Shown: piece after piece, positions 18,152-21,175 of the stretch
How the letters are laid out: every line of letters starts with the position of its first letter
Numbering within the stretch: position 1 is the first letter of the stretch
Source: an uncultured Chloroflexia bacterium
GTDB lineage: Bacteria; Chloroflexota; Limnocylindria; Limnocylindrales; CSP1-4
Reading direction: 5' to 3'
Assembly: GCA_963766735.1 (NCBI GenBank)
Contig: CAVYBU010000020.1
Location: forward strand, 13,086 to 45,085
DNA length: 32,000 bases
Made by a program: the position numbers and the translations under genes
Notes under the pieces: generated by a model
What the model saw: only the letters and a program-made list of their open reading frames with translations
What the model was told of the DNA's origin: nothing
Database searches by the model: none

Positions 18152-19930
18152 GTGGGGTGGCAGACTAGAGACGTGGCACCGAAGAGCGCCCCGCGATCCG
18201 CCCCCAATGCTGATGCCGGGCTCGGAGGACTGGCGTCTGCGTGGCTGGTCGTGCGGTGGCCGCTGTTCGGCGCAGTCGCTGTGGTCGCTTTCCTCCTTGG
18301 CTACGTCGGCTTCGGCTCCTACTTCGAAGACCTCCTGACTCCACGTCCGCCGACTGATCTGGTGTACCTGTCGCTGCAGCTGTTCGTGCTGGAGTCAGGC
18401 AGCATTCCGGGACCCGTGCCCTGGCAGCTGGGCGTCGCCCGCTTCCTGGCTCCTGCCACCACAGTGACAGGGGTCGCGGTGGCCCTGGCGGCCATCTTCG
18501 GCGAGGAACTGGCGGAGGTGCGGCTGCACCTCCAGAGACGACACATCGTTGTGTGCGGGTTGGGTGAGCGAGGAACACGGCTGGTCCGGTCGTTGCTCGA
18601 CGGTGGGTATCGGGTGGTGGCAGTCGAGCTGGATCCCGGCAATCGGGCGATCCCCGAGGTTCGCCGTCGAGGGGCTCTGGTGGTGGTCGGAGACGCCCGC
18701 ACTGCTGGGGTGCTGCGCCGCGCCCGCGTCCAGCACGCCGAATACGTGGTTGCGTTGACAGGCGCCGACGACGCCAATGCGGAGGTGGCTATCCGCGCGG
18801 GAGAGTTGGCGCCGGTTCATGGGCCGGCGCTGACCTGCCTGGCACATGTGCGGGACCCGGGGCTGTGTGCCCTCCTGCGCTCGCGGGAACTGGCGTCCGG
18901 CCACGCGACTCACTACCGCCTTGACTTCTTCAACATCTATGAACAGGGCGCGCGGGCGCTGCTGCGCGACCAGCCGGCAATTGGTCTCGCCGTGCAGGAG
19001 CCACGACTGGCGGTGATCGGTCTCACCCCGCTGGGTCAGGCGGTCGTCCTCGAGTCGGCCCGGCAGTGGCGAGCCAGCGGCCGGGCGCGCGACCATCGCA
19101 TCCAGATCACGGTGCTGGATCCGGACGCGGAGCGACTTGTGGGCCTGTTGCAGGCGCGCTACCCCCAGCTCGACCATGTCGCCGTCGTGCAGGGTGTCGA
19201 GACCGGAGCCGGCCACCTCGATTGCTCGACACTCAGGTCCGGCGGGCCGTGGCAGGCCGCCTACGTGTGCATCGATGATGATTCAATGGCGCTTGACGGG
19301 GCGCTACAGGCTCGTCAGTGCCTGGAAGGCAGCTCGACCCCGGTGGTCGTCGATCTGAGCATGTCACCCGGGCTGGCGGGACTAGTGCAACGCCCGGCGG
19401 GTAGCGACGGTATTCGCGCGTTCGATCTGTTCGAGCGGACGCTCCGACCTGATCTGCTGTTGGGCGGGACGTACGAGATCCTCGCTCGCGCCATCCACGC
19501 CGAGTATGTCGATGAGGCACGCCGGCAGGGGGCCACCGCCACCAGCAACCCATCGGTTGTTCCCTGGGAACAGTTGCCCGATTCCCTCAAGGAGTCCAAC
19601 CGGGATCAGGCAGCACACATCGGGGTGAAGCTGGCTGCGATCGGACGGGGGATAGCCCCGCTCAACGACTGGGAGGCCGATCAGCTCACGTTCACGGGAG
19701 CCGAGGTCGAACAGCTGGCCGAGCAGGAGCACCGACGGTGGGTCGAACAGCGGCTGCGCGACGGCTGGACACTCGGACCCAAGGACATCGACGCCAAGGT
19801 CACTCCCTACCTTGTCCCGTGGGAGCAGCTCAGCGACGAGGTCCGGGAGTTGGATCGCCGACCGGTCAGGGGCATCCCGGGATTTCTGGCCCGGGCCGGT
19901 TACCAGGTTGTGCCCAACTCGATCCCCTAG
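18152..19930 (+). CDS. Channel-like membrane protein: 2 TM helices with a pore-loop-like segment + TrkA-N/RCK Rossmann domain + two C-terminal RyR-repeat domains
   Basis: 592-aa ORF. The start is uncertain (GTG 18152 or GTG 18173).
- TM1: WPLFGAVAVVAFLLGYVGF.
- Pore-loop-like segment: DLVYLSLQLFVLESGSIPGP.
- TM2: VARFLAPATTVTGVAVALAAIF.
- Rossmann motif: HIVVCGLGERGTRLVRSLLDGGYRVVAVELD.
- RyR-type repeats: LARAIHAEYVDEARRQG...VVPWEQLPDSLKESNRDQ and LAEQEHRRWVEQRLRDGWTLGPKDIDAKVTPYLVPWEQLSDEVRELDRR. Confidence 0.75.
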   Translation: MGWQTRDVAPKSAPRSAPNADAGLGGLASAWLVVRWPLFGAVAVVAFLLGYVGFGSYFEDLLTPRPPTDLVYLSLQLFVLESGSIPGPVPWQLGVARFLAPATTVTGVAVALAAIFGEELAEVRLHLQRRHIVVCGLGERGTRLVRSLLDGGYRVVAVELDPGNRAIPEVRRRGALVVVGDARTAGVLRRARVQHAEYVVALTGADDANAEVAIRAGELAPVHGPALTCLAHVRDPGLCALLRSRELASGHATHYRLDFFNIYEQGARALLRDQPAIGLAVQEPRLAVIGLTPLGQAVVLESARQWRASGRARDHRIQITVLDPDAERLVGLLQARYPQLDHVAVVQGVETGAGHLDCSTLRSGGPWQAAYVCIDDDSMALDGALQARQCLEGSSTPVVVDLSMSPGLAGLVQRPAGSDGIRAFDLFERTLRPDLLLGGTYEILARAIHAEYVDEARRQGATATSNPSVVPWEQLPDSLKESNRDQAAHIGVKLAAIGRGIAPLNDWEADQLTFTGAEVEQLAEQEHRRWVEQRLRDGWTLGPKDIDAKVTPYLVPWEQLSDEVRELDRRPVRGIPGFLARAGYQVVPNSIP

Positions 19931-20047
19931 GATAGGGAGGCGAGATCCACCGGCGATCCGTCCGGGCCTGCCGAACGTCCCTGTCACCGCAGGCCCGCTG
20001 CTCCGCCGGACAGGACCGGTCCACCGACCGGTTGGGAGCCGGGCGTC

Positions 20048-21175
20048 ATGGCCCACGACGTCTTCATCTGCCATTCGTCCAAGGACCGCACGGTCGCGAA
20101 CGCGATCTGTGCCACGCTCGAGCAGCAACGCATCCGCTGCTGGATCGCGCCCCGGGACGTCCTCCCCGGCAGCGACTATGCCACGTCCATCGTCGAGGCC
20201 GTCAGCGCCACAAGACTCACGGTCTTCGTCTTCTCGGAGAACTCCAACCAGTCCCCGCACGTCCGCAGGGAGATCGAGCGCACCGTCAGCCGCGGCATCC
20301 CGATCCTCCCGTTCCGGGTGGAGGACGTCGTGCCCTCCCCGTCGCTCGAGTACTTCATCTCGGACGCCCACTGGCTCGACGCCCTTACCCCGCCGCTTGA
20401 GCAGCATCTCCAGCAGCTCGTCGGCGTCGTCCGGGCTCTGCTCGCGAGCCTGCCGCCGAAGAGCGGGATTGTGCCGGTGGCCGCCGGCGCCCAGGAGCCC
20501 TCCCCAGCGGAGCGTATGCCGACGACCGCGCCGCCGCAGATCGCTCCGGGCACGCCCTGGACGATGGCCAAGCGACGGCCGCCGGTGCTGATCGCTGGCA
20601 TCGTCGGGGTGGGTTTGGTGGCTGTCCTGGGACTCGTCGGGGCCATTGCTCTTGCCCCCTCGGGTCCGGCAGCGACGTCGCCGAGTCCGGAAGCGATGTC
20701 GCCGAGTTCTGAAGCGACGTCGCCGAGTCCGGAAGCGACGTCGCCGAGTCCAGCGGCAAAGATTGTCGCGGAGTCGGCGCTCATGGCCGGCGACTGCCTG
20801 AGGACGCCGAACGAGTACGCGGGCAGCGCATCCGATCAGGCTCGTTTCTGGGCGGAAGGCCCGTGGTCTTCGAGTTGGGTCGTCTTGCCATGCGATCAGG
20901 ACCACGGCGCCGAGGTGTTCTTCTATGGCGATGTCTGGGGGTCCCGGACAACCTATCCCGGCGACGCCGCCGTCGGGTCCCGGTGGACAGCGCAGTGCGC
21001 GGCAGAGTTCGAGCGCTATGTCGGAGTCCCGTCGGGGCGGTCGGTCCTGAGCATCAACGGATGGACTGGCTTCGGCGCCGACGGGTGGGCCCAGGGGCTG
21101 CGCGACATGGCCTGCATCGCCTACGACCGCGGCGGCGCAGCTCTGCAAGGGAGCATCAGGGGAACCGGCCGGTAG
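20048..21175 (+). CDS. TIR-domain membrane protein: N-terminal cytoplasmic TIR, one TM helix, 7-aa repeat linker, Cys-containing extracytoplasmic domain (septum-formation-family-like)
   Basis: 375 aa.
- TIR_2 pattern: HDVFICHSSKDRTVANAICATLEQQRIRCWIAPRDVLPGSDYATSIVEAVSATRLTVFVFSENSNQSPHVRREIERT...ILPF.
- TM helix: VLIAGIVGVGLVAVLGLVGAIALA.
- Linker: PAATSPSPEAMSPSSEATSPSPEATSPSP.
- C-terminal domain: GDCLRTP...VVLPCDQDHGAEVFFYG...YPGDAAV...AQCAAEFERYVG...ACIAY. Confidence 0.8.
   Translation: MAHDVFICHSSKDRTVANAICATLEQQRIRCWIAPRDVLPGSDYATSIVEAVSATRLTVFVFSENSNQSPHVRREIERTVSRGIPILPFRVEDVVPSPSLEYFISDAHWLDALTPPLEQHLQQLVGVVRALLASLPPKSGIVPVAAGAQEPSPAERMPTTAPPQIAPGTPWTMAKRRPPVLIAGIVGVGLVAVLGLVGAIALAPSGPAATSPSPEAMSPSSEATSPSPEATSPSPAAKIVAESALMAGDCLRTPNEYAGSASDQARFWAEGPWSSSWVVLPCDQDHGAEVFFYGDVWGSRTTYPGDAAVGSRWTAQCAAEFERYVGVPSGRSVLSINGWTGFGADGWAQGLRDMACIAYDRGGAALQGSIRGTGR
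20669..20752 (+). repeat. Four tandem 21-bp units inside the TIR gene (encode the E-A-T-S-P-S-P linker)
   Basis: The four units are gcagcgacgtcgccgagtccg / gaagcgatgtcgccgagttct / gaagcgacgtcgccgagtccg / gaagcgacgtcgccgagtcca. The repeat is in frame. Confidence 0.9.

What the first reader, a model, noticed from the sequence alone, without database searches (positions are those of the whole stretch)
18152..21175. Adjacent channel-like RCK/RyR-repeat protein and receptor-like TIR protein: candidate undescribed NAD-signalling or defence module
Seen in the sequence: two same-strand genes lie 117 nt apart.
- Gene 1 has two TM helices flanking a short LQLFVLESGSIPGP segment. That is the position of a pore loop in 2TM cation channels, but the TVGYG filter is absent. 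It is followed directly by a GxGxxG TrkA-N/RCK Rossmann domain and two C-terminal RyR-type repeats.
- Gene 2 has an N-terminal TIR domain (DVFICHSSKD...RCWIAPRD...SPHVRREIE), one TM helix, a 4x7-aa repeat linker and a four-Cys extracytoplasmic domain. This is a Toll-like-receptor-style layout: an outside sensor and an inside TIR.

Established knowledge:
- Bacterial TIR domains are NAD+ glycohydrolases/cyclases that make cADPR-isomer signals or deplete NAD in anti-phage systems such as Thoeris.
- RCK/TrkA-N domains bind NAD(H) and other nucleotides to gate channels.
- Animal ryanodine receptors are modulated by cADPR.

Inference: an envelope cue sensed by the TIR protein could be converted into an NAD-derived signal, or an NAD drop, that gates the neighbouring channel-like effector. 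I do not recognise this pairing as any named defence system. The first gene also seems to use more A/T-ending codons than its neighbours.
Basis: partly seen in the sequence, partly recalled or inferred. Interest (0 to 1): 0.8.

Follow-up and report, generated by a model that had tools for sequence, protein, structure and literature searches.

The report
TIR receptor paired with RyR-domain channel
A membrane receptor with an inside-facing TIR enzyme domain sits next to an ion-channel-like protein that carries the nucleotide-sensing domain of animal ryanodine receptors; the pairing recurs across bacterial phyla and looks like an undescribed NAD-derived signal-to-channel pathway.

Summary
Gene 1 (18152-19930) has two membrane helices around a pore-helix and loop, a TrkA_N/RCK domain, a second Rossmann lobe and a two-repeat RyR domain. 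Gene 2 (20048-21175) has a TIR domain, one membrane helix, a 4x7-aa repeat and a four-Cys Septum_form ectodomain.

The pairing is not chance. In 78 loci holding a gene 1 homologue, TIR or TIR-like DUF4062 genes occur at 4.1 per 10 kb within 500 nt, against 0.15 per 10 kb at 5-10 kb. About 37 loci from at least five phyla have one adjacent, on either side and strand. Most adjacent TIR proteins share gene 2's layout. One metagenomic protein fuses this TIR subfamily to these RyR repeats.

The TIR keeps the catalytic Glu (E75). The N-terminus models as a P-loop channel pore, and some family members carry a canonical TVGYG filter where gene 1 has LESGS. Two 2026 preprints show that phage RyR domains bind TIR-made cADPR isomers.

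The best reading is a Thoeris-like module in which a receptor-type TIR makes an NAD-derived signal that gates an RCK/RyR channel. It is unrelated to the type X Thoeris channel ThsK. It is absent from PADLOC and does not sit in a defence island, so an anti-phage role is unproven.

The parts
18152..19930 (+). Gene 1: 592-aa membrane protein with a 2TM pore-like domain, two RCK/Rossmann lobes and a two-repeat RyR (R12-like) domain
Evidence: The AF2 model is and the Foldseek hits to GsuK, TrkA, MthK and RyR3 R12 are. There are more than 300 full-length homologues and 2,101 clusters at 50% identity with E<=1e-30.
18221..18331 (+). M1, the outer transmembrane helix (residues 24-60)
   Evidence: It is a helix in both AF2 models. 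G50 and G53 are invariant.
18350..18421 (+). Pore-helix-like segment (residues 67-79, DLVYLSLQLFV) and filter-position loop (residues 80-90, LESGSIPGPVP)
   Evidence: Y72, Q76, L77 and W91 are invariant. In the N-terminal alignment, TIGYG of the canonical members L052, L054, L057 and L058 falls at this position. L140 carries Ion_trans_2 and TVGYGD in the same N-terminal region. The commonest loop forms in the family are ESGSV and ESGSI.
18422..18496 (+). M2, the inner transmembrane helix (residues 91-115)
   Evidence: It is a helix in the AF2 models. R97 and P101 are invariant.
18545..18880 (+). RCK1 / TrkA_N Rossmann domain (residues 132-243), with GxGxxG (G136-G141) and acidic E159/D161 after strand 2
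   Evidence: Pfam TrkA_N scores E 2e-19.
19004..19426 (+). Second Rossmann/RCK-like lobe (residues 285-425)
   Evidence: AF2 predicts an alternating strand-helix pattern. Foldseek aligns it with the tandem-RCK proteins TrkA (4j9u) and GsuK (4gx0). G290 and G295 are invariant.
19448..19921 (+). RyR Repeat12-like domain (residues 433-590), made of a divergent repeat 1 (about 440-510) and a canonical repeat 2 (519-586)
   Evidence: Pfam RyR scores E 5e-15. phmmer against RyR1/2/3 and the Bacteroides RyR protein gives E 1e-15 to 1e-18. Foldseek hits RyR3 R12 structures 6uhb, 6uhh and 9l9b. H527, W530 and D568 match the RyDEP ligand residues H75, W78 and D117 (PMC13232231).
19931..20047 (+). 117-nt spacer with no terminator-like hairpin and an SD-like GGGAG at 20034-20038
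20048..21175 (+). Gene 2: 375-aa single-pass membrane protein with an N-terminal cytoplasmic TIR and a C-terminal ectodomain
   Evidence: The ORF is and the Pfam hits.
20060..20419 (+). TIR domain (residues 5-124); the catalytic-position Glu E75 is the codon at 20270-20272
   Evidence: Pfam TIR_2 scores E 8e-22. The alignment to the TIR-STING and TLR2/6 W-x-x-x-E motif is.
20585..20659 (+). Transmembrane helix (residues 180-204), preceded by KRR, which implies N-terminus in and C-terminus out
20664..20751 (+). 21-nt tandem repeat, 4.2 copies, encoding an S/P-rich 7-aa repeat linker
20753..21172 (+). Extracytoplasmic domain with four Cys; it matches the C-terminal part of Septum_form (residues 280-356)
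   Evidence: Pfam Septum_form scores 26.7 bits against a cutoff of 25. This domain is only 67% identical to the closest relative, where the TIR is 95% identical.

Best explanation
The two genes form a two-component, Thoeris-like signalling module.

- **Sensor.** Gene 2 has Toll-like-receptor topology: a variable ectodomain outside, one membrane helix, and a catalytically competent TIR inside.
- **Signal (inferred).** Ligand- or damage-induced clustering activates the TIR, which cleaves NAD+ into an ADP-ribose-derived messenger. A cADPR isomer is the most likely product.
- **Effector.** Gene 1 is a tetrameric P-loop cation channel of the MthK/GsuK type. Each subunit has a 2TM pore and two RCK lobes. 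The K+ filter is replaced by LESGS, and a ryanodine-receptor Repeat12 domain is appended to the gating ring.
- **Gating (inferred).** The messenger binds the RyR domain. The NAD(H)/ADP-type pocket of RCK1 may also take part. Binding moves the ring and opens the pore.
- **Outcome (inferred).** Cation flux or depolarisation arrests or kills the cell, or otherwise changes its physiology.

Shown here: the domain identities, the fold, the conserved residues, the conserved adjacency and the fusion. Inferred: TIR activation by the ectodomain, the identity of the messenger, binding to the RyR domain, ion conduction, and the physiological outcome.
For: **Gene neighbourhood**
- In 78 loci, TIR or DUF4062 ORFs occur at 4.14 per 10 kb within 0-500 nt of the gene 1 homologue, against 0.15 per 10 kb at 5-10 kb.
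- Counting 33 loci plus 4 that the overlap rule missed, 37 loci have such a gene within 1 kb. These lie on either side and either strand, in several phyla.

**Shared partner architecture**
- The adjacent TIR proteins repeatedly show an N-terminal TIR, one membrane helix about 30 residues later, and a variable ectodomain. The ectodomains include PD40, LVIVD, TPR, 3keto-disac_hyd/ConA-like and Septum_form.
- Where no TIR_2 gene is adjacent, the neighbour is often DUF4062-NACHT-WD40/TPR or TIR-CHAT-STAND. DUF4062 is a TIR-like NADase (10.64898/2026.05.01.722283).

**Fusion**
- L123 encodes one protein that joins this TIR subfamily to RyR repeats homologous to gene 1's C-terminus.

**TIR competence**
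- E75 is invariant and sits at the catalytic position.

**Channel**
- Foldseek matches the full model to GsuK, TrkA and MthK at about E 3e-10.
- The N-terminal model (pLDDT 90) hits only tetrameric P-loop channel pores in its top 50.
- Homologues L140, L052, L054, L057 and L058 have TVGYG/TIGYG, and L140 also has Pfam Ion_trans_2, in the same N-terminal pore region.

**Sensor domain**
- The RyR domain is significant by sequence and by fold.
- Phage RyR domains bind 2'cADPR, 3'cADPR and cADPR at nanomolar affinity, or cleave them (PMC13232231; 10.64898/2026.06.04.730250).
- Three of the four RyDEP ligand residues are kept in repeat 2: H527, W530 and D568.
- RyR also occurs next to SLOG and RelA_SpoT domains in genes neighbouring these channels.

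**Sensor diversification**
- Between the window and its closest relative, the ectodomain is 67% identical, the TIR 95% and the channel 96%.
Against: - Reverse association is weak. Of 80 metagenomic loci holding this TIR subfamily, only 4 have a full channel homologue nearby and about 4 more have another RyR protein. Among the 23 loci with at least 1.5 kb on both sides, 5 have one. Most TIR-TM paralogues therefore act alone or in trans.
- About half of the channel loci with good flanks lack a detectable TIR or DUF4062 neighbour.
- In about 40% of adjacent cases the TIR gene is on the opposite strand, so the two genes are not one operon.
- The filter-position loop is not conserved across the wider family (LESGS, LNPASTP, LQGGA and others). 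That is odd for a selective pore.
- The N-terminal region has no sequence-level match to any channel in the PDB, and the fold matches have weak E-values of 0.26-0.7.
- The phosphate-binding His of RyDEP is Thr in repeat 2 (T551) and Asn in repeat 1 (N466).
- There is no PADLOC match and no defence-island or mobile-element context in the window.
- No assay of any kind was done.
Confidence: 0.55

Rival explanations
1. NAD-level sensing rather than a dedicated messenger. The TIR acts as a plain NAD+-depleting enzyme, and the channel's RCK Rossmann pocket senses the fall in NAD+, or the rise in ADPR or ADP. The RyR domain has only a structural or auxiliary role.
For: RCK1 keeps the GxGxxG motif and the acidic residues after strand 2 (E159, D161). 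The closest full-length structural match, GsuK, was crystallised with NAD and with ADP (entries 4gx2 and 4gx1). DUF4062 partners are reported to hydrolyse NAD+ to ADPR (10.64898/2026.05.01.722283).
Against: This reading does not explain why the RyR domain is invariably retained and even multiplied, with up to four Pfam repeats in longer members. It also does not explain why RyR is the part fused to the TIR in L123, or why RyR recurs with SLOG-containing neighbours.
Confidence: 0.2
2. A physical receptor-channel complex with no diffusible signal. The TIR acts as an interaction scaffold, as in animal TLR/adaptor TIRs, and couples ectodomain events directly to the channel in the membrane.
For: The best PDB sequence matches of this TIR subfamily are animal receptor and adaptor TIRs: Hydra TRR2, MAL, and TLR1/2/6. 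Both proteins are in the membrane. The subfamily has a unique conserved C-terminal motif, HWLDALTPPLE, that could be an interface.
Against: The catalytic Glu is invariant. Soluble DUF4062/TIR-STAND partners substitute for the TM-TIR in many loci. There are many more TIR-TM paralogues than channels.
Confidence: 0.1
3. Gene 1 regulates or terminates the signal rather than acting as the effector. Its RyR domain would cleave or sequester TIR-made cADPR isomers, as phage RyDEP and RyR Tad do. The membrane part would be only an anchor.
For: The RyDEP catalytic dyad equivalents H527 and D568 are present (PMC13232231). The filter-position loop varies across the family.
Against: The conserved M1-P-M2 fold, the invariant pore-helix residues and the homologues with bona fide K+ pores argue for conduction. 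A tandem-RCK gating ring has no obvious role in a sponge.
Confidence: 0.08
4. The two genes are functionally unrelated, and the adjacency is incidental.
For: The window context is housekeeping-like. Most TIR-TM genes lack a channel neighbour.
Against: There is a 27-fold positional enrichment with an in-locus control. The adjacency survives rearrangement across phyla, and a TIR-RyR fusion protein exists.
Confidence: 0.05

Closest known systems
Thoeris anti-phage systems (ThsB TIR plus a signal-activated effector; types I-XI)
   Same: A TIR gene with the catalytic Glu lies next to an effector gene that carries a nucleotide-binding sensor domain. In several Thoeris types the effectors are membrane-disrupting or channel-like (types II, V, VII and X; 10.64898/2025.12.03.692087).
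   Different: - The TIR is a TIR_2/TLR-like subfamily anchored in the membrane with a variable ectodomain, not a cytosolic ThsB.
- The effector is an RCK/RyR channel that does not appear in the held part of that paper's tables.
- There is no defence-island context.
- Adjacency is often on the opposite strand.
- Anti-phage activity is untested.
Type X Thoeris effector ThsK ('ion channel')
   Same: It is a TIR-linked membrane protein that the authors call an ion channel. Its TIR signal is still unknown.
   Different: I retrieved ThsK from a Bacillus contig (L080 3298-3987). It is 229 aa, has no Pfam domain and shows no detectable homology to the gene 1 family (hhalign probability 0.09%). Its TIR is of the ThsB_TIR/DUF1863 type.
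RCK-gated prokaryotic K+ channels (MthK; GsuK, which has two RCK domains per subunit and binds NAD+/ADP)
   Same: The order is the same: M1-P-M2 pore, then RCK, then RCK. Foldseek matches GsuK at full length. Some members of the same family have Ion_trans_2 with TVGYG.
   Different: Gene 1 lacks the K+ signature (LESGS instead of TVGYG) and misses Pfam Ion_trans_2. It adds a C-terminal RyR Repeat12 domain that no characterised RCK channel has.
Phage RyR-domain proteins RyDEP and RyR Tad
   Same: They share the PF02026 R12-like fold and the H-x-x-W...D ligand motif. They are demonstrated binders or cleavers of TIR-made 2'cADPR, 3'cADPR and cADPR (PMC13232231; 10.64898/2026.06.04.730250).
   Different: They are small soluble viral counter-defence proteins that form homodimers of single repeats. 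Here the domain is host-encoded, forms a tandem repeat within one chain, and is attached to a channel gating ring.
Animal ryanodine receptors (Repeat12 domain) and cADPR-evoked Ca2+ release
   Same: A cation channel carries an R12 domain that binds adenine nucleotides (6uhh, 9l9b). Sequence similarity to RyR1/2/3 repeats reaches E 1e-15.
   Different: The pore and overall architecture are entirely different: a 6TM, roughly 5000-aa channel against a 2TM, 592-aa one. Whether cADPR acts directly on RyR is unsettled.
Toll-like receptors
   Same: The topology is the same: ectodomain, single TM helix, cytoplasmic TIR. The box-1 (DVFISY) and box-2 (RDxxPG) motifs are present.
   Different: The orientation along the chain is reversed, with the TIR N-terminal. 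The ectodomains are not LRRs. The TIR keeps the catalytic Glu, and the inferred output is a small molecule rather than adaptor recruitment.

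Membership tests
Thoeris-like TIR signalling system | A TIR protein with the catalytic glutamate | tested here: met
   E75 is invariant in 16 channel-adjacent TIRs. It aligns with the Glu of WSKFE in TIR-STING and WCKYE in TLR2.
Thoeris-like TIR signalling system | A conserved adjacent effector gene with a domain able to bind a TIR-derived nucleotide | tested here: met
   The adjacency enrichment is 4.14 against 0.15 per 10 kb. The effector carries a RyR R12 domain. Cognate phage domains of this family bind cADPR isomers (PMC13232231). 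Binding by this particular protein was not tested.
Thoeris-like TIR signalling system | Enrichment in defence islands or recognition by defence-system models | tested here: not met
   Gene 1 has no PADLOC hit, and gene 2 has only weak generic ThsB-TIR hits. The window neighbours are ferrochelatase, a PEP-utilising enzyme, VanW, GDSL, SBP and SDR genes. The partner proteins are not in PADLOC either.
Thoeris-like TIR signalling system | Phage-triggered production of a signalling molecule, and protection from phage | not testable with these tools
   This needs infection assays and LC-MS.
Type X Thoeris (ThsB + ThsK) | Effector homologous to ThsK | tested here: not met
   hhalign of ThsK (L080 3298-3984) against family alignment A1 gives probability 0.09%.
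RCK-gated tetrameric P-loop cation channel (MthK/GsuK type) | M1 - pore helix - loop - M2 fold | tested here: met
   The AF2 models show these helices. The Foldseek top 50 for the N-terminal model are all NaK, MthK, KcsA or iGluR pores, with MthK pore at TM 0.53/0.61 and rmsd 3.6 A, although E-values are only 0.26-0.7. Homologues carry Ion_trans_2 at the same place.
RCK-gated tetrameric P-loop cation channel (MthK/GsuK type) | K+ selectivity signature T-[VI]-G-[YF]-G | tested here: not met
   Gene 1 has LESGS. The commonest family forms are ESGSV and ESGSI. The signature is present only in a minority subgroup: L052, L054, L057, L058, L140, P0376, P0445 and P0502.
RCK-gated tetrameric P-loop cation channel (MthK/GsuK type) | Cytoplasmic RCK/TrkA_N domain directly after M2 | tested here: met
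   Pfam TrkA_N scores 70.2 bits against a cutoff of 23.8. The tandem Rossmann lobes match TrkA and GsuK.
RCK-gated tetrameric P-loop cation channel (MthK/GsuK type) | Tetrameric assembly and ion conduction | not testable with these tools
   Only monomer prediction was available. This needs multimer modelling, cryo-EM or flux assays.
RyR Repeat12 domain family (PF02026) | A profile match above the curated threshold | tested here: met
   56 bits against 27.4. phmmer against RyR1/2/3 and the Bacteroides protein gives E 1e-15 to 1e-18.
RyR Repeat12 domain family (PF02026) | Two repeats forming one pseudo-symmetric domain | tested here: met
   Foldseek aligns about 180-190 columns to the whole human RyR3 848-1055 domain. 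Repeat 1 shows the same motif in degenerate form.
RyR Repeat12 domain family (PF02026) | Ligand-contact residues His, Trp, His and Asp (RyDEP H75, W78, H100, D117) | tested here: inconclusive
   Repeat 2 has H527, W530, T551 (not His) and D568. Repeat 1 has H449, Y452, N466 and N483. The mapping comes from the alignment together with PMC13232231 section 4.

The most novel reading that the evidence does not exclude
This is a prokaryotic cation channel gated by a cADPR isomer, and its ligand sensor is the same Repeat12 domain found in animal ryanodine receptors. It is driven by TIR receptors with Toll-like-receptor topology that read extracytoplasmic cues. If so, a 'TIR -> cyclic ADP-ribose -> RyR-domain channel' axis is ancient. 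The R12 domain would then be the long-sought site through which cADPR-type molecules act on ryanodine receptors.
Probability: 0.3. Interest if true: 0.92.

Novelty: new variant of a known kind. Interest (0 to 1): 0.78.

Why it matters
1. **First host-side use of the RyR domain.** The 2026 phage work showed that this fold binds TIR-made cADPR isomers, but only as a viral sponge or enzyme. Here it is welded to a channel gating ring and genetically tied to TIR enzymes. This gives a small, tractable 592-aa model for asking whether cADPR-type ligands can gate a channel through an R12 domain, a question still open for animal ryanodine receptors.
2. **A second TIR-linked channel-type effector.** It would be unrelated to ThsK, and it suggests TIR signalling outside classical defence islands.
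3. **Outside-in TIR signalling in bacteria.** The partner proteins form a large, diversifying family of bacterial 'ectodomain - TM - TIR' receptors. Described Thoeris systems do not have this arrangement.
4. **Size of the family.** The channel family has 2,101 clusters at 50% identity with E<=1e-30, and it has no PADLOC model or equivalog-level NCBIfam match.

Tried and rejected
- **Type X Thoeris.** I first suspected the module was the 'TIR + ion channel' system. I retrieved ThsK through the ThsB sequence given in the paper's Table S1 and found it unrelated. A first attempt through plasmid tblastn gave only type II (Macro) systems.
- **Sequence link from the N-terminus to known channels.** A profile search of the PDB found nothing: one spurious adhesin hit at E 0.31. 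Pfam Ion_trans_2 does not hit gene 1. The resemblance of LESGS to the NavAb/NaChBac 'TLESW' filter was recalled from memory and could not be tested, so I did not use it.
- **TIR-channel fusions among long family members.** None were found. The extra length is additional RyR repeats.
- **Single-linkage clustering of neighbour ORFs.** It was contaminated by antisense ORFs in high-GC DNA. I replaced it with HMM-based counting.
- **Source contig of the window.** The look-up with gene 2's exact protein returned nothing.
- **Foreign origin from codon usage.** Rejected, because GC3 is within the window's range.
- **Readthrough of the gene 1 TAG stop into gene 2.** The two are in the same frame with no stop in the spacer. 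I judged this chance for 70% GC DNA, and the upstream in-frame residues are not conserved between loci.

Full report
**1. The observation**

The window is about 70% G+C. ORFs 18152-19930 (592 aa) and 20048-21175 (375 aa) lie on the + strand, 117 nt apart. The spacer has no terminator-like hairpin, and a GGGAG lies 9 nt before the gene 2 ATG.

- TrkA_N: gene 1 residues 132-243, E 2e-19
- RyR: gene 1 residues 519-586, E 5e-15
- TIR_2: gene 2 residues 5-124, E 8e-22
- Septum_form: gene 2 residues 280-356, just above its cutoff

Gene 2 also has:
- one hydrophobic helix at residues 180-204, preceded by KRR
- a 21-nt repeat of 4.2 copies at 20664-20751
- four ectodomain cysteines

The codon-usage remark is only marginally true. 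Gene 1 has GC3 0.78, and other window genes are equally low.

**2. What gene 1 is**

It belongs to a large, uniform and essentially unannotated family.
- More than 300 full-length homologues of about 590 aa all carry TrkA_N plus RyR.
- An exhaustive search counts 2,101 clusters at 50% identity with E<=1e-30.
- Longer members simply add RyR repeats.

The AF2 model (pLDDT 82.7, pTM 0.72) shows, in order:
- a long helix (24-60), a short helix (67-79), a loop (80-90) and a second long helix (91-115)
- two Rossmann lobes
- an all-helical C-terminal domain

Foldseek against the PDB returns the TrkA gating ring and the GsuK channel at about E 3e-10, and then MthK. GsuK has a 2TM pore and two RCK domains per subunit and was crystallised with NAD and ADP. 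For the C-terminus it returns the human RyR3 Repeat12 domain, including complexes with ATP, ADP and dantrolene. By sequence, residues 519-586 match RyR1/2/3 repeats and the Bacteroides RyR-like protein at E 1e-15 to 1e-18. Repeat 1 carries a degenerate copy of the same motif.

**3. Is the N-terminus a pore?**

Sequence searches fail. Pfam Ion_trans_2 does not hit, and a family profile finds no channel in the PDB. Three other lines agree that it is a pore domain.
- *Conservation.* It is concentrated on the short helix and its flanks: Y72, Q76, L77, W91, R97 and P101 are invariant.
- *Fold.* A separate AF2 model of residues 30-128 (pLDDT 90.3) has only tetrameric P-loop cation-channel pores in its Foldseek top 50. 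These are NaK, CNG-mimic NaK, MthK, KcsA and iGluR pores. The MthK pore scores TM 0.53/0.61 with rmsd 3.6 A. E-values are weak (0.26-0.7), as expected for about 90 helical residues.
- *Homologues with a true pore.* Some proteins are homologous to gene 1 over the whole RCK-RCK-RyR body and carry a bona fide K+ pore in the same place.
  - L140 2501-4414 has Pfam Ion_trans_2 (E 2e-15), TrkA_N and RyR, with the sequence ...FYFVVVTIATVGYGDITP....
  - L052, L054, L057 and L058 carry TIGYG.
  - In the N-terminal alignment, the filter of the TIGYG members falls on gene 1's LESGS.

Gene 1 is therefore a divergent P-loop channel that has lost the K+ signature. ESGS[VI] is the commonest form in its clade. 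More distant subgroups have other loops, so selectivity, and even conduction itself, remain inferences.

**4. What gene 2 is**

Its homologues form a very large set of proteins. They share a highly conserved N-terminal TIR, 75-83% identical even where the rest differs, followed by one TM helix and different ectodomains. The ectodomains include Septum_form, DUF4352 and ConA-like PF17851.

Sixteen channel-adjacent TIRs from different phyla average 66% column identity. They share box-1 (HDVF), CWIAPRD...PG and HWLDALTPP motifs and an invariant Glu (E75 in gene 2). In a profile-to-PDB alignment this Glu pairs with the Glu of 'SEWSKFE' in oyster TIR-STING and of 'SEWCKYE' and 'SEWCHYE' in TLR2 and TLR6. 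From established knowledge of SARM1 E642 and plant TIRs, that is the catalytic position.

Between the window and its closest relative, the TIR is 95% identical, the ectodomain 67% and the channel 96%. The sensor end therefore diverges fastest.

**5. Are the two genes linked?**

I scanned one genome per species with the family alignment and obtained 77 loci from many phyla. I then searched their six-frame ORFs with a TIR HMM and a DUF4062 profile.

| Distance from the gene 1 homologue | TIR/DUF4062 ORFs per 10 kb |
|---|---|
| 0-500 nt | 4.14 |
| 0.5-5 kb | 0.31-0.37 |
| 5-10 kb | 0.15 |

- 33 loci have such a gene within 1 kb. Four more were missed by my overlap rule (L042, L045, L049, L073), giving about 37 of 78.
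- Among the 40 loci with at least 3 kb on both sides, 19 have one adjacent by the strict rule. L042 and L073 would add two more.
- The partner lies upstream or downstream. It is on the same strand in about 60% of cases, and otherwise convergent or divergent. Adjacency has therefore been kept through rearrangements.

Partner proteins:
- Pfam and hydropathy show that most adjacent TIR proteins repeat gene 2's plan: TIR, one TM about 30 residues later, then a variable ectodomain (PD40 propeller, LVIVD, TPR, 3keto-disac_hyd/ConA-like).
- Where no TIR_2 gene is adjacent, the neighbour is often DUF4062-NACHT-WD40/TPR (L008, L011, L014, L015, L024, L042), TIR-CHAT-STAND (L049) or CHAT (L060).
- DUF4062 was reported in 2026 to be a TIR-like NADase (10.64898/2026.05.01.722283; 10.64898/2026.09.04.749371).
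- A further recurrent neighbour is an ~850-aa RelA_SpoT-TPR-SLOG-RyR protein, found in seven loci.

The reverse test is much weaker. Of 80 metagenomic loci picked with the TIR alignment, four have a full channel homologue and about four more have another RyR protein. One of those 80 loci, L123, encodes a single protein that fuses this TIR subfamily to RyR repeats homologous to gene 1's C-terminus. That is a Rosetta-stone link between exactly the two domains the model connects.

**6. Mechanism**

Two independent 2026 preprints show that phage RyR (R12-like) proteins act on TIR products.
- RyR Tad sponges 3'cADPR (Kd 43 nM), 2'cADPR and cADPR (10.64898/2026.06.04.730250).

Mapping through the RyR-repeat alignment, gene 1's repeat 2 has H527, W530, T551 and D568, which is three of the four. 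Repeat 1 has H449, Y452, N466 and N483.

The most economical reading is this:
1. The ectodomain senses a cue.
2. The TIR is activated and makes an NAD-derived nucleotide.
3. The nucleotide binds the RyR domain on the RCK ring.
4. The pore opens.

Every step after the domain identities and the genetic link is inference. The rivals are listed separately: NAD-level sensing by RCK1, a physical TIR-channel complex, and gene 1 as a signal quencher.

**7. Comparison with what is known**

The logic is that of Thoeris. The recent survey of TIR systems defines types V-XI and mentions a 'TIR + ion channel' type X (10.64898/2025.12.03.692087).
- I retrieved that effector, ThsK, from a Bacillus contig. It is 229 aa with no Pfam domain.
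- It has no similarity to the gene 1 family (hhalign probability 0.09%).
- Its TIR is of the ThsB_TIR/DUF1863 type, not the TLR-like TIR_2 type seen here.
- Neither RyR, TrkA nor RCK appears as an effector label in the held, truncated supplementary tables.

Full-text searches found no paper that links prokaryotic RyR, TrkA and TIR. PADLOC has no model for gene 1 or for the partner architectures.

The window itself is not a defence island. Its other genes encode an adenylate-cyclase-STAND protein, a PEP-utilising enzyme, ferrochelatase, and VanW, GDSL lipase, solute-binding and SDR proteins. I therefore file the pair as Thoeris-like in mechanism, not as a demonstrated anti-phage system.

**8. 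Verdict**

- The interpretation survives all four of its own refutation tests and gains a published biochemical rationale.
- The module is a new variant of TIR-to-effector signalling: a new effector, a new receptor-type sensor and an unusual genomic context.
- Confidence in the overall mechanism is about 0.55.
- Interest is high, because the module offers a small bacterial model for R12-domain gating by cADPR-type ligands.

Noticed in passing
L123 5983-8490 (metagenome contig Ga0116148_1001041): A single 836-aa protein fuses the same TIR subfamily (N-terminus), a degenerate P-loop region (GPPGAGLRY) and several RyR repeats homologous to gene 1's C-terminus. It is a Rosetta-stone fusion of the two domains.
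   Followed up: partly
L010 387-2927, L013 13700-16369, L017 1181-3781, L022 6955-9459, L023 4516-6900, L045 3100-5754, L075 3539-6148: A family of ~850-aa proteins lies next to gene 1 homologues. Its members combine RelA_SpoT (nucleotide pyrophosphokinase), TPR, SLOG (LSDAT_prok) and RyR domains. This suggests a wider RyR-centred nucleotide-signalling network. No member is present in the window.
   Followed up: partly
L140 2501-4414 (-), L052 722-2500, L054 10265-12010, L057 2852-4744, L058 9032-10870: A subgroup of the same family keeps a canonical K+ channel filter (TVGYG/TIGYG; L140 also has Pfam Ion_trans_2) ahead of the RCK-RCK-RyR body. L058 and L140 also have TIR neighbours.
   Followed up: partly
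window 19928-20050: The gene 1 TAG stop and the gene 2 ATG are in the same reading frame, with no other stop in the 117-nt spacer. This is probably chance in 70% GC DNA, since the upstream in-frame residues are not conserved in other loci.
   Followed up: partly
window 3799-7605 (+): A 1268-aa protein combines a double zinc ribbon, an adenylate/guanylate cyclase domain, an AAA_16 (STAND-like) ATPase and TPR repeats. It is a second large nucleotide-signalling protein, 10 kb upstream of the finding.
   Followed up: no
window 8264-10171 (-): A 635-aa ORF has no Pfam hit. It lies in a stretch (about 8.3-13.2 kb) where my GC3 frame filter called no gene, although 10632-13490 (-) does hit PEP-utilising enzyme domains.
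   Followed up: no
window 19382-21802 (-): An 806-aa antisense ORF overlaps the 3' end of gene 1 and all of gene 2. No support for it as a gene was found. Antisense ORFs of this kind also contaminated the neighbour clustering in the high-GC loci.
   Followed up: partly
gene 2 homologues P0168, P0180, P0220, P0231 (Humibacillus xanthopallidus): Humibacillus xanthopallidus records carry at least four TIR-TM paralogues with near-identical TIRs (65-80%) and different ectodomains. The species did not appear in the genome scan for the channel family. This TIR receptor family can therefore exist without the channel.
   Followed up: no
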